From Escherichia coli (GTDB lineage: Bacteria; Pseudomonadota; Gammaproteobacteria; Enterobacterales; Enterobacteriaceae), in assembly GCF_044324785.1 (NCBI RefSeq), contig NZ_CP172128.1: DNA of 64,000 nucleotides, one strand, 5' to 3'. Position numbers: made by a program. This document shows positions 1-3,000 of the stretch, piece by piece; position 1 is the stretch's first letter, and the number at the start of each line of letters is the position of its first letter.

Positions 1-3000
1 GTGGCGGCCCTGAACCAGACCTCATTCACTGAAAGCACATACCGTCAGGTAAAGAACCCGAATCCGGTCTTCACACCCCGTGAAGATGCCGGAACGCTGA
101 AGTTCTGCGAAAAACTGATGGAAAAGGCCGTGGGCTTCACCTCCCGTTTTGATTTTGCCGCGCATGTGGCGTATGCCCGTTCGCGCGGCCTGCGCCGGCG
201 TATGCCGCCGGTGCTGCGCCGCCGGGCGATTGATGCGCTGCTGCAGGGGCTGTGTTTCCACTATGACCCGCTGGCCAACCGCGTGCAGTGCTCCATCACC
301 ACGCTGGCCATTGAGTGTGGTCTGGCGACAGAGTCTGAGGCCGGGAAACTCTCCATCACCCGTGCCACCCGTGCCCTGAAGTTCCTGGCAGAGCTGGGGC
401 TGATGACCTACCAGACGGAATACGACCCGACAATTGGCTGTAACATTCCGACCGACATCACGTTCACGCCGGCACTGTTTGCCTCACTCGATATCTCTGA
501 AGAGGCGGTGGCTTCCGCACGCCGCAGCCGCGTGGAATGGGAAAACAAGCTGCGTAAAAAGCAGGGGCTGGATGCGCTGGGTATGGATGAACTGATAGCG
601 AGAGCCTGGCGTTTTGTGCGCGAGCGTTTCCGCAGTTACCAGGCAGAGCGCAAGGCCCACGGCATGAAACGTGCCCGCGCTCGCCGTGATGCGGGCCGGA
701 CCCGTCAGGACATTGTCACCCTGGTGAAACGGCAGCTGACGCGTGAAATTGCGGAAGGGCGTTTCCGGGGAAGCCTGGAAACCGTGAAGCGCGAAATCGA
801 CCGTCGCGTGAAGGAGCGCATGATAATGTCGCGGAACAACAACTACACACGGCTGGCCACAGCCTCACCCTGAGAGTGACCTCATCTGAATAATCCGGCC
901 TGCGCCGGAGGCTTCCGCACGTCTGAAGCCCGGTGACGCACAAAAAAGCAGCACAGCACACAAAAAACAGCCTCATTATCTGCCTTCCGGCTCGCCTTGC
1001 TCCCCCTGTTTTTCACGCAAAACACGTATCACAGACGGGGAATTCTGTTTATCCACATTTAACTGCAAGGGACTTCTCCGTAAGGTTACAACCGTTCATG
1101 CTATAAAGCGCCAGCCGCAGGCGTTACAGGGTGCAATGTTTCTTTTAAACCCCAGTACTGTATTTCCTTTAAACTACTTAATTACTTCCATTTAAAAAGA
1201 AAACCTGTTCAGTGCCTGTCCTGTGGACAGACTGATATGCACCTCCCACGCTAACGCGCGGGCCCCGAACCTCACCATTCTGAAACCACAGCAAAAAAAC
1301 ATCAGGAATAAAAAACACCACACAAACACAGCACTGTACCCCCCCCCTCATAACTGAAAAGCGCCGCCGCCCCCGCCCGAAGGGCGGGAACAACATCGCT
1401 TTTAATTATGAATGTTGTAACTACATTGTCATCGCTGTCAGTCTTCTGGCTGGAAGTTCTCAGTACACGCTCGTAAGCGGCCCTCACGGCCCGCTAACGC
1501 GGAGATACGCCCCGACTTCGGGTAAACCCTCGTCGGGACCACTCCGACCGCGCACAGAAACTCTCTCATGGCTGAAAGCGGGTATGGTCTGGCAGGGCTG
1601 GGGATGGGTAAGGTGAAATCTATCAATCAGTACCGGCTTACGCCGGGCTTCGGCGGTTTTACTCCTGTGCCATATGCTACAACGGAGTGCCGCCTTCCAT
1701 GCCGCTGGCGCGGCATCAGAACAACTGAAGAGTGACGGCGCACATTAGCATCAAACAGACTTGTTAAGCAGTCTTTCAGGGTGTAATCTGAAGACCTGTT
1801 AAACAGTCTCAGAGGTGTGTTATGCCCAGTATAATTTTGTCTGACACCAGTGCAAGCGTCAGTGAACTGAAAAAAAATCCAATGGCGACAGTCAGTGCCG
1901 GAGAGGGTTATCCTGTTGCCATTCTTAACCGGAATCAGCCTGCATTCTACTGTGTTCCAGCTGAGCTCTATGAAAGGATGCTTGATGCCCTGGATGACCA
2001 GGAGCTGGTGAAACTGGTTACTGAGCGCAGCAGTCAGCCTCTGCATTATGTGGACCTGGACAGTTATTTATGACTTATACGGTTAAATTCAGGGATGATG
2101 CACTGAAAGAATGGCTCAGACTGGATAAGGCCATTCAGCAGCAGTTCGCAAAAAAAACTAAAAAAATGCAGTGAAAATCCTCATATAGCCTCTGCAAAAC
2201 TACGTGGATTAAAAGATTGCTACAAAATAAAACTTCGCGCATCAGGTTTTCGTCTGGTCTATCAGGTGATTGATGACATGTTAATTATTGCGGTTGTCGC
2301 AGTAGGTAAACGTGAACGTAGTCATGTTTACAATCTCGCCAGCGAGAGAATGAGATAGGGGGTGTAAATGCTTTTAAGTTTTAGTGAGTTAGATGTTCTT
2401 ATTTATCAGGGGAAGGTTGGGGGTTTATTTCGTGAAAGAAAAAATGAAAGGGTTGCTACAGACATTGATTCCAGAAACAAGTCATCATCAAGCAGTCATG
2501 AATATGATTCAGTTTTATCATTTCAATTTATTTGTGATAATGGAAAAGAAATAAATGTGAATTTAACAAATTGGAATATTAACATATTTCCAGGTCAAGA
2601 GCTCATTATTTATTTTGTGGAAAACTCAAAAAAAACAAAAAAATACCATACATGATAAAAAACAAAAGTACATCGGAAGTAACTAATAATGTTCAAGAAA
2701 TGTATAAAGAGTTTTTTATACATCATACTTCAAACTGATAATACCTTTCCTGTTAATCATTTCTTACTTTATGTCATCCATATCTGTGGCTATCATGTCA
2801 TTCGTTTTATATGTCATAATCAGAAGAAGAATAGGAAAAGATTTCTTTTCAGAAATAAAAAGGAAAAGGTTAAAAAAAGAAGATATCATGGGGTTAGAGC
2901 ACGTAATATAGGGGCGACTGGTCCTTATAAGGGACCGTCTAGGGACCGGAGTTCCATTGCTACGCCGGAACCGCCGAAATTTCCGGCGTAGCTCTCTCTT

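What the first reader, a model, noticed from the sequence alone, without database searches (positions are those of the whole stretch)
1822..2358. relBE module with frameshifted toxin and intact antitoxin
relB is intact, but relE has 7 A at 2151-2157 where 6 would give the expected in-frame AKKLKKC..., so frame 1 terminates after 34 codons. The plasmid would then keep an orphan antitoxin that could neutralise related chromosomal or co-resident RelE toxins. A homopolymer sequencing error is the obvious alternative.
Basis: seen in the sequence. Interest (0 to 1): 0.45.

Follow-up and report, generated by a model that had tools for sequence, protein, structure and literature searches.

The report
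Frameshifted RelE toxin, intact antitoxin
A plasmid "addiction" gene pair has lost its toxin through one extra A in a run of A's while keeping its antitoxin. The change looks real rather than a sequencing error, but it is an ordinary, early step of gene decay.

Summary
relE (start 2070) carries 8 A at 2150-2157, where intact relatives have 7, so the ORF stops after 34 codons (2172-2174). The antitoxin gene (1822-2073) is intact.

The window is an IncK2/Z E. coli plasmid almost identical to pLH10-b-1-A (NZ_CP100531.1). Of 33 homopolymer runs of 7 or more bases, only this one differs, so the assembly is not error-riddled.

The same A8 allele occurs in three independent short-read assemblies. Two match 801/801 bases (Logan ERR8976829, ENA ERZ27280464) and one differs by a single SNP (ERZ28621960). 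It is absent from all complete records searched. I judge it a real, rare, circulating allele (about 0.8), not an artefact.

Repaired, the toxin is 53% identical to E. coli K-12 RelE, with K52, K54, R61, R81 and Y87 conserved. It is 95% identical to the experimentally functional RelE of Shigella sonnei pINV (P307-type). The antitoxin has a Phd/YefM-type N-terminus and a RelB-like C-terminus.

The tandem A7-CT-A7 tract is an indel hotspot across the family: A8/A6, a 9-nt deletion and A9/A7 alleles were also seen. The "orphan antitoxin gives immunity" idea is plausible but untested. Programmed or leaky frameshifting is unlikely. This is ordinary toxin-first decay of a known toxin-antitoxin module.

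The parts
1757..1809 (+). Two 18-nt direct repeats, AGACTTGTTAAGCAGTCT (1757-1774) and AGACCTGTTAAACAGTCT (1792-1809). Each is an AGACT-N8-AGTCT imperfect palindrome lying just upstream of the antitoxin start. They are candidate operator sites of the autoregulated operon.
   Evidence: (repeat finder) and direct reading. The operator function is inferred, not shown. No sigma-70 consensus match was found here.
1822..2073 (+). Intact antitoxin gene, 83 aa. It has a Phd/YefM-type N-terminal domain and a RelB-like C-terminal toxin-binding stretch.
   Evidence: ORF. The DNA is identical to the annotated antitoxin WP_045145550.1 of NZ_CP100531.1. Pfam PF02604 E 4.8e-5. NCBIfam YafN-like, below cut-off. 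The C-terminal DDQELVKLVTERSSQP aligns with RelB EDAELVEIVKERLRNP; 12 of 20,000 shuffles reach the score.
2070..2174 (+). Truncated relE reading frame of 34 codons plus TGA. Its start overlaps the antitoxin stop (ATGA). It encodes only the N-terminal third of RelE and none of the catalytic residues.
   Evidence: The exact 34-aa product is found on 8 public contigs.
2150..2157 (+). A8 tract, the site of the +1 insertion. Intact relatives have A7.
2160..2166 (+). Second A7 tract, separated from the first by CT. Together the two form the tandem slippage hotspot. Homologues show A6 here, or loss of one whole 9-nt unit.
2158..2358 (+). Out-of-frame remainder of relE (codons 30-95 plus TAG). It is identical to intact alleles and encodes K52, K54, R61, R81 and Y87. 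It is not translated from the relE start.
   Evidence: Gapless 1-93 alignment to E. coli K-12 RelE, E 3e-29. Residue check.
39310..39869 (-). Context: a second, intact type II module in the window. It consists of a ParE/RelE-family toxin (91 aa, 39310-39585) and a CopG/RHH antitoxin (94 aa, 39585-39869).
   Evidence: ORFs. Annotation of the identical region in NZ_CP100531.1.
62749..63392 (+). Context: an intact VapB (62749-62979) and VapC (62976-63392) module. It provides a redundant plasmid-maintenance function.
   Evidence: ORFs. Annotation of the matching region of NZ_CP100531.1.

Best explanation
This is a genuine, recent +1 replication-slippage mutation (A7 to A8) in the first of two tandem A7 tracts of a P307-type relE gene. 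The gene lies next to the replicon of an IncK2/Z E. coli plasmid.

Shown:
- The reading frame ends after 34 codons, upstream of every catalytic residue.
- The antitoxin gene and its upstream region are unchanged.
- The rest of relE carries no further mutation.
- The same allele occurs in independent short-read datasets.

Inferred:
- No active RelE is made, so this module can no longer kill plasmid-free segregants.
- The loss is tolerated because removing the toxin first is the only viable order of toxin-antitoxin (TA) decay.
- The plasmid keeps other TA modules: VapBC and ParE/CopG in the window, and CcdAB in the near-identical relative just beyond it.
- The antitoxin is still made. Without its toxin co-repressor it is probably less tightly autorepressed.
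- The cell would therefore be immune to the same RelE delivered by related plasmids.
For: Sequence:
- The extra A and the 34-codon ORF are seen directly.

Not an assembly artefact:
- The window matches pLH10-b-1-A over 62,672 of 64,000 nt.
- Differences are about 9 SNPs, one non-homopolymer indel and this one homopolymer difference.
- Only 1 of 33 runs of 7 or more bases differs.
- A truly error-prone assembly, GCA_019430965.1, shows 7 homopolymer insertions in 800 nt.

Independent support:
- Logan ERR8976829 and ENA ERZ27280464 contigs are 801/801 identical, including A8.
- ENA ERZ28621960 has A8 with one SNP and a divergent flank.

Not a systematic Illumina error:
- The intact 95-aa product is on at least 1000 contigs; the truncated one is on 8.

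Toxin identity:
- TIGR02385 RelE/StbE scores 34.5 bits against a cut-off of 27.9.
- It is 53% identical to K-12 RelE, with all five catalytic residues conserved.
- It is 90/95 aa identical to the S. sonnei pINV RelE, which is experimentally functional (PMC8923223).

Hotspot:
- A8/A6, a 9-nt deletion and A9/A7 alleles occur in homologues.

Redundancy:
- Other TA modules are present.
Against: - No raw reads of the window's own assembly could be inspected.
- None of 47 RefSeq complete E. coli records or 37 PLSDB records matching the 81-nt core carries A8/A7, so the allele is rare.
- Homopolymer errors do occur in public records of this same operon. NZ_CP027383.1 has an intact toxin but an antitoxin frameshifted in its own A-run, which is biologically implausible.
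- The short-read contigs could come from epidemiologically linked samples. They prove the allele exists, but not that it arose more than once.
- Loss of toxicity and continued antitoxin expression are inferred, not measured.
Confidence: 0.8

Rival explanations
1. Sequencing or assembly artefact in this record. The plasmid really has A7 and an intact relE, and the eighth A is a consensus error in a homopolymer.
For: - A 1-nt insertion in an 8-base homopolymer is the classic long-read error.
- No complete plasmid or genome in PLSDB or RefSeq shares it.
- Other records of the same operon contain evident homopolymer errors (L006; L021).
Against: - It is the only one of 33 runs of 7 or more bases that differs from the near-identical pLH10-b-1-A over 62.7 kb.
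- Three independent short-read assemblies carry the identical allele on the same sequence background.
- The mutation is of the tolerated kind: toxin lost, antitoxin kept.
Confidence: 0.13
2. Leaky or programmed recoding. RNA-polymerase slippage on A8, or +1 ribosomal slippage of tRNA-Lys on AAA-AAA-A, restores the frame in a fraction of products. A low level of full-length RelE would then still be made and the module would stay partly active.
For: - A-runs are known slippage sites.
- Bacterial genes with 9A/9T, and some IS elements with 8A, use transcriptional slippage (PMC1088944).
- Re-pairing of tRNA-Lys in the +1 frame would be perfect on this sequence (direct reading).
Against: - The frameshifted arrangement is not conserved. 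The intact A7/A7 form dominates: at least 1000 contigs against 8, and all 84 matching complete records lack A8/A7.
- Restoring the frame needs deletion of one A from the mRNA. With E. coli RNA polymerase, reporter assays found no rescue by deletion on any poly(A) run tested, and no detectable activity on runs shorter than 8 A (PMC6260861).
- No stimulatory element, such as a rare or stop codon in the A site, follows the run. The next codon is ACU.
- No Rfam element was found in 1-6000.
Confidence: 0.04
3. Selected 'immunity-only' variant or reversible switch. The toxin-off allele is maintained because an antitoxin-only plasmid resists post-segregational killing and exclusion by its toxin-on relatives. 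The tandem A-tracts would let the toxin toggle off and on.
For: - The allele persists in several samples and on at least two flanking backgrounds.
- The same tract shows an in-frame A8/A6 allele, as expected from an off-then-on path.
- Cognate toxin-bearing plasmids are very common: 529 PLSDB records.
- Orphan antitoxins are discussed as anti-addiction devices (PMC7354431).
Against: - The allele is rare.
- The A8/A6 allele sits in a clade whose toxin also carries R61H and R81H and whose antitoxin is frameshifted. That is decay, not switching.
- A7/A8 runs mutate far more slowly than classic contingency loci.
- In S. sonnei the intact module had no measurable effect on plasmid maintenance (PMC8923223), so there may be little to be immune from.
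Confidence: 0.03

Closest known systems
RelBE of plasmid P307 and of Shigella sonnei pINV (type II TA next to an IncFII-type repA/ori)
   Same: - Same position, directly downstream of an incFII-family repA and its origin.
- Same sizes (83 aa and 95 aa) and the same ATGA overlap.
- 90/95 aa (toxin) and 78/83 aa (antitoxin) identical to the S. sonnei pINV pair, and 88.5% identical at the DNA level.
- The pINV pair is reported as functional and closely related to P307 relBE (PMC8923223).
   Different: - Here the toxin is frameshifted by one extra A.
- The S. sonnei gene has GTG instead of GCA before the tract, so its first run is only A6.
- A direct comparison with the P307 record M26308 was not possible with these collections.
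Escherichia coli K-12 chromosomal RelBE (PDB 4FXE, 4V7J/K, 2KC8)
   Same: - The repaired toxin aligns gaplessly over residues 1-93 and is 53% identical.
- K52, K54, R61, R81 and Y87 are conserved.
- The antitoxin C-terminus resembles the RelE-binding C-terminus of RelB.
   Different: - The antitoxin's N-terminal DNA-binding domain is Phd/YefM-type, not the ribbon-helix-helix of K-12 RelB.
- The module is plasmid-borne.
- The toxin is inactivated.
Orphan antitoxins and the anti-addiction model (e.g. chromosomal CcdA of Erwinia chrysanthemi neutralising F-plasmid CcdB; orphan antitoxins in Klebsiella genomes)
   Same: An antitoxin gene is left without a working cognate toxin, and it could neutralise the same toxin arriving on other replicons. 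The review PMC7354431 notes that most orphan antitoxins are remnants of degraded canonical modules.
   Different: - The orphan here is plasmid-borne and only one mutation away from the intact module.
- No neutralisation has been shown.
Transcriptional-slippage or programmed-frameshift genes with A/T runs (IS elements, Thermus dnaX, Shigella type III genes)
   Same: There is an A-run at the junction of two overlapping frames.
   Different: - The run is 8 rather than 9 or more.
- The arrangement is not conserved among homologues.
- Restoring the frame needs a deletion-type slip, which E. coli RNA polymerase does not detectably make on poly(A) (PMC6260861).

Membership tests
RelE/StbE mRNA-interferase toxins (TIGR02385; Pfam PF05016 superfamily) | Profile match above the curated cut-off | tested here: met
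   The repaired 95-aa sequence scores 34.5 bits against TIGR02385, cut-off 27.9. Close homologues carry PF05016.
RelE/StbE mRNA-interferase toxins (TIGR02385; Pfam PF05016 superfamily) | Catalytic residues of RelE (K52, K54, R61, R81, Y87) present | tested here: met
   The gapless alignment to K-12 RelE conserves all five. They lie in the out-of-frame remainder at 2158-2358.
RelE/StbE mRNA-interferase toxins (TIGR02385; Pfam PF05016 superfamily) | Uninterrupted reading frame giving a full-length toxin | tested here: not met
   The frame stops after 34 codons at 2172-2174. The locus is a relE pseudogene, not a working member.
Type II toxin-antitoxin operon | Antitoxin gene directly upstream of, and overlapping, the toxin gene; small proteins; palindromic sites upstream | tested here: met
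   The genes 1822-2073 and 2070-... overlap by ATGA. Two AGACT-N8-AGTCT repeats lie at 1757-1809.
Type II toxin-antitoxin operon | Toxicity of the toxin, neutralisation by the antitoxin, and plasmid stabilisation | not testable with these tools
   These are known only for the 94-95% identical S. sonnei pINV pair. That pair was functional as a TA but had no effect on pINV maintenance (PMC8923223).
Phd/YefM antitoxins (Pfam PF02604) | N-terminal Phd/YefM domain | tested here: met
   PF02604 E 4.8e-5 over residues 10-61. YafN-like NCBIfam hit, below cut-off.
RelB antitoxins in the K-12 sense (ribbon-helix-helix N-terminus) | RHH DNA-binding domain homologous to RelB 1-50 | tested here: not met
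   No PDB RelB hit even at E 10. BLASTP similarity is confined to the C-terminal 16-26 residues.
P307-type RelBE | Close sequence identity to the P307 relBE genes and a location beside the replicon | tested here: inconclusive
   The location is met: repA at 1-873, with the module 950 nt downstream. Identity was tested only against the S. sonnei pINV pair (90/95 and 78/83 aa). PMC8923223 states that pair is closely related to P307. The P307 sequence itself is not available here.
Programmed frameshift or transcriptional-slippage gene | Frameshifted two-ORF arrangement conserved among homologues | tested here: not met
   Homologues are overwhelmingly in-frame A7/A7.
Phase-variable contingency locus | On and off tract lengths found frequently among near-identical relatives | tested here: not met
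   None of 47 RefSeq and none of 37 PLSDB records with this core carries A8/A7. Only 8 of more than 1000 contigs do.

The most novel reading that the evidence does not exclude
The tandem A7-CT-A7 tract would act as a low-frequency on/off switch for the RelE toxin. Toxin-off, antitoxin-on variants such as this one would persist in plasmid populations as 'immune cheaters'. They would escape killing and exclusion by their toxin-on IncK/IncB/O/Z/IncF relatives and could revert, or compensate to A8/A6.
Probability: 0.06. Interest if true: 0.5.

Novelty: already known. Interest (0 to 1): 0.17.

Why it matters
Practically, it matters little. It tells an annotator that this relE is a true pseudogene rather than a base-calling error, and that this plasmid relies on its other TA modules (VapBC, ParE/CopG, and probably CcdAB).

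It is also a clean snapshot of the first step of TA decay. The toxin is knocked out by a single slippage event, and the antitoxin, the candidate operators and the rest of the toxin gene are untouched.

The tract itself is a documented indel hotspot in a TA family present on hundreds of enterobacterial plasmids. That is useful to know when judging frameshift calls in this gene.

If the antitoxin-only allele were shown to protect against relBE+ plasmids, it would be a natural, plasmid-borne example of anti-addiction or plasmid competition.

Tried and rejected
1. I looked for the window's own record or an identical A8 allele among complete sequences. None was found in PLSDB or RefSeq complete E. 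coli, either with 801-nt or 81-nt queries.
2. Loci L002 and L003 seemed to be missing from the script machine. They turned out to be stored inside L001.fa and were then used.
3. I tested the idea of an error-riddled assembly. It was rejected: only one homopolymer difference in 62.7 kb.
4. I considered the divergent A8/A7 contigs L007 and L009 as an independent recurrence of the same mutation. Their clade normally has A8/A6, so their identical 34-aa product arises by a different route (run 2 going from A6 to A7, plus an extra A at the next run). This shows the hotspot, not recurrence of the same event.
5. I considered the A8/A6 'TKK' allele as proof of off-then-on switching. It was rejected because that clade also has R61H and R81H and a broken antitoxin.
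6. Transcriptional slippage rescue is not supported by the published E. coli RNA-polymerase data.
7. An Rfam scan of 1-6000 found nothing, and the promoter consensus scan found no match upstream of relB.
8. A PDB sequence search with the antitoxin found no solved relative.
9. Two paper-reading runs failed because the terms were too short.
10. Structure prediction and the large protein searches were not used, because nothing about the fold or family was in doubt.

Full report
**1. What is in the sequence**

Window 1822-2073 is an intact 83-codon ORF. Its stop overlaps (ATGA) the start of a second ORF at 2070, which ends after 34 codons at the TGA at 2172-2174. The sequence at the break is GC-AAAAAAAA-CT-AAAAAAA-TGC: eight A at 2150-2157, then CT, then seven A at 2160-2166.

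The correct description is 8 against 7, but the claim of one extra A is right. Removing one A gives an uninterrupted 95-codon gene ending at the TAG at 2356-2358. An alignment with NZ_CP029742.1 shows that single gap as the only difference in 306 nt.

**2. What the genes are**

The repaired toxin passes the NCBIfam RelE/StbE model (34.5 bits, cut-off 27.9). It aligns without gaps over residues 1-93 to E. coli K-12 RelE (E 3e-29). Identity is 53%, and the catalytic residues K52, K54, R61, R81 and Y87 are all conserved. All five lie downstream of the frameshift, so the 34-residue product cannot be an active toxin (inference from the established RelE mechanism).

The antitoxin has a Phd/YefM-type N-terminal domain (PF02604, E 4.8e-5; YafN-like). 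It is not the ribbon-helix-helix of K-12 RelB: no RelB hit appeared in the PDB search even at E 10. Its C-terminal stretch DDQELVKLVTERSSQP does resemble the RelE-binding C-terminus of RelB. BLASTP gave E 0.055, and 12 of 20,000 shuffles reached the local score. "relB" is therefore only half right.

Two 18-nt direct repeats at 1757-1774 and 1792-1809, each an AGACT-N8-AGTCT palindrome, lie just upstream. They are candidate operators (function inferred).

**3. Where it sits**

The window starts at the repA gene of an IncK2/Z plasmid from E. coli; its closest relatives come mostly from chickens. The module lies about 950 nt downstream of repA.

The same module occurs in 529 PLSDB plasmids: 479 Escherichia, 24 Shigella, 21 Salmonella and a few others. 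The S. sonnei pINV copy is 88.5% identical in DNA, 90/95 aa identical in the toxin and 78/83 aa in the antitoxin. PMC8923223 reports that this pINV RelBE lies near the origin and is closely related to relBE of P307. It is a functional TA system but has no discernible effect on pINV maintenance in the laboratory. I could not compare directly with the P307 record.

**4. Real mutation or artefact?**

Three lines of evidence favour a real mutation.

(a) Assembly quality.
- The window matches pLH10-b-1-A (NZ_CP100531.1) over 62,672 of its 64,000 bases.
- The differences are about nine SNPs, one non-homopolymer 1-nt indel (at 13464) and this A-run.
- Of 33 homopolymer runs of 7 or more bases (102 of 6 or more), only the relE run differs.
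- By contrast, the error-prone assembly GCA_019430965.1 shows seven +1 homopolymer insertions in the same 800 nt.

(b) Independent occurrences. The exact 34-aa truncated product exists in the public protein collection and is encoded on eight contigs.
- Logan contig ERR8976829_156 and the MEGAHIT contig k141_112184 of ERZ27280464 are 801/801 identical to the window, including A8.
- A scaffold of ERZ28621960 has A8 plus one SNP, and its flank diverges at 57 positions.
- The Logan contig differs from the window at another A-run (3731), so it is not the same assembly.

(c) No systematic bias. The intact 95-aa product is on at least 1000 contigs against eight for the truncated one.

Some evidence points the other way.
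- No complete plasmid or genome carries A8/A7: none of 47 RefSeq and none of 37 PLSDB records matching the 81-nt core.
- I could not see reads.
- Public records of this operon do contain probable homopolymer errors. NZ_CP027383.1, for example, has an intact toxin with an antitoxin frameshifted in its own A-run.

I put a real allele at about 0.8 and an artefact in this record at about 0.13.

**5. The tract is an indel hotspot**

| Tract state | Where seen | Consequence |
|---|---|---|
| A7-CT-A7 | majority of homologues | intact toxin |
| A8-CT-A7 | window, L008, L010, L011 | frameshift, 34-aa product |
| A8-CT-A6 | L012-L015 (286 collection blocks) | in frame, Leu30 to Thr |
| single A7 | L016-L019 | 9-nt deletion, loss of LKK |
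| A9-CT-A7 | CP099214.1 | frameshift |
| A8-CT-A7 plus an extra A in the next run | L007/L009 | frameshift |

The last four variants belong to a divergent clade. The A8-CT-A6 and single-A7 alleles also carry R61H and R81H, L007/L009 and CP099214.1 carry R81H, and the antitoxin is frameshifted in all but L007/L009. That clade is a module in advanced decay, not evidence of adaptive switching.

**6. Most likely mechanism and consequences**

- **Shown:** the toxin frame is broken before all catalytic residues. The antitoxin and the upstream region are identical to intact relatives. The remainder of relE carries no further change, so the event is recent.
- **Inferred, loss of function:** the module no longer supports post-segregational killing.
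- **Inferred, why tolerated:** losing the toxin first is the only non-lethal order of decay, and the plasmid has other modules. ParE/CopG lies at 39310-39869 and VapBC at 62749-63392. CcdAB is present in the near-identical relative just beyond the window.
- **Inferred, antitoxin:** it continues to be made, and probably at a higher level because toxins normally act as co-repressors in such operons.
- **Inferred, immunity:** a cell carrying this plasmid would be immune to the cognate RelE from the many related plasmids. Given the RelB-like C-terminus, it could conceivably also be immune to K-12-type RelE, although crosstalk between non-cognate pairs is generally rare (PMC12301738, abstract).

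It matches the anti-addiction concept reviewed in PMC7354431, which also notes that most orphan antitoxins are simply remnants of degraded modules. It remains untested.

**7. Rivals**

- **Recoding.** Restoring the frame needs a one-base deletion in the mRNA or a +1 ribosomal slip. Reporter work found no rescue by deletion on any poly(A) run tested with E. coli RNA polymerase (PMC6260861). Functional slippage sites in bacteria are typically 9A or 9T (PMC1088944). The frameshifted arrangement is also not conserved. I give this about 0.04.
- **Selected immunity-only variant or switch.** This cannot be excluded but has no positive evidence beyond persistence in a few samples. I give it about 0.03 as the main explanation, and 0.06 as the most novel reading not excluded.

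**8. Verdict**

The core interpretation is supported, and the sequencing-error alternative is disfavoured by independent short-read assemblies.

Biologically this is an ordinary, recent pseudogenisation of a well-known plasmid TA toxin at a slippage-prone tract. Both the kind of system and the phenomenon (toxin-first decay, orphan antitoxin) are already known. Interest is low, at about 0.17.

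Noticed in passing
window 3731-3738 (inside ORF 3381-4262, acetyltransferase): A second polymorphic A-run lies 1.6 kb from relE. It is A8 (in frame) in the window, NZ_CP100531.1 and contig L008. It is A7 in NZ_CP080166.1 (annotated 'frameshifted'), NZ_CP029742.1 and Logan contig L010.
   Followed up: partly
L021 (NZ_CP027383.1) 2501-3037; equivalent to window 1870-1877: Another IncK2/Z record has an intact relE but an antitoxin frameshifted in its own A-run. An intact toxin without its antitoxin should be lethal, so this is probably an assembly error. It is a caution for frameshift calls in this operon.
   Followed up: partly
L012-L019 (1249-1790 of each) and L020 (CP099214.1): A widespread divergent clade of the module has both catalytic arginines replaced in the toxin (R61H, R81H) and a frameshifted antitoxin. 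It sits next to EAL-domain and AraC-type genes or on IncFIA/FII plasmids. This is a module in late decay that is still annotated as a RelE/ParE toxin.
   Followed up: partly
window 1339-1347: A C9 run between repA and the TA module (origin region) varies in length and is interrupted in close relatives: C6 in NZ_CP029742.1 and GCCCACCCC in NZ_CP080166.1.
   Followed up: no
window 1757-1809: Two 18-nt AGACT-N8-AGTCT repeats lie 35 nt apart upstream of the antitoxin start and are candidate operators. Contigs L007, L008 and L009 carry a C-to-T change at 1804 inside the second repeat.
   Followed up: partly
window 2368-2655: A low-GC 95-aa ORF directly follows relE. It is annotated as hypothetical in relatives, has no NCBIfam hit, and travels with the module in the IncK2/Z relatives. 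Premature termination in relE could affect its expression through polarity.
   Followed up: no
window about 8700-9930: By identity with NZ_CP100531.1, this region holds an IS1414 copy that carries the astA (EAST1 heat-stable enterotoxin) gene inside the transposase gene. A PerC-family regulator and a large autotransporter lie further on.
   Followed up: no
window 13464: This is the only other 1-nt indel against NZ_CP100531.1, and it is not in a homopolymer (ACCA-GAG against ACCATGAG). The window agrees with NZ_CP080166.1, so the change is private to CP100531.
   Followed up: partly
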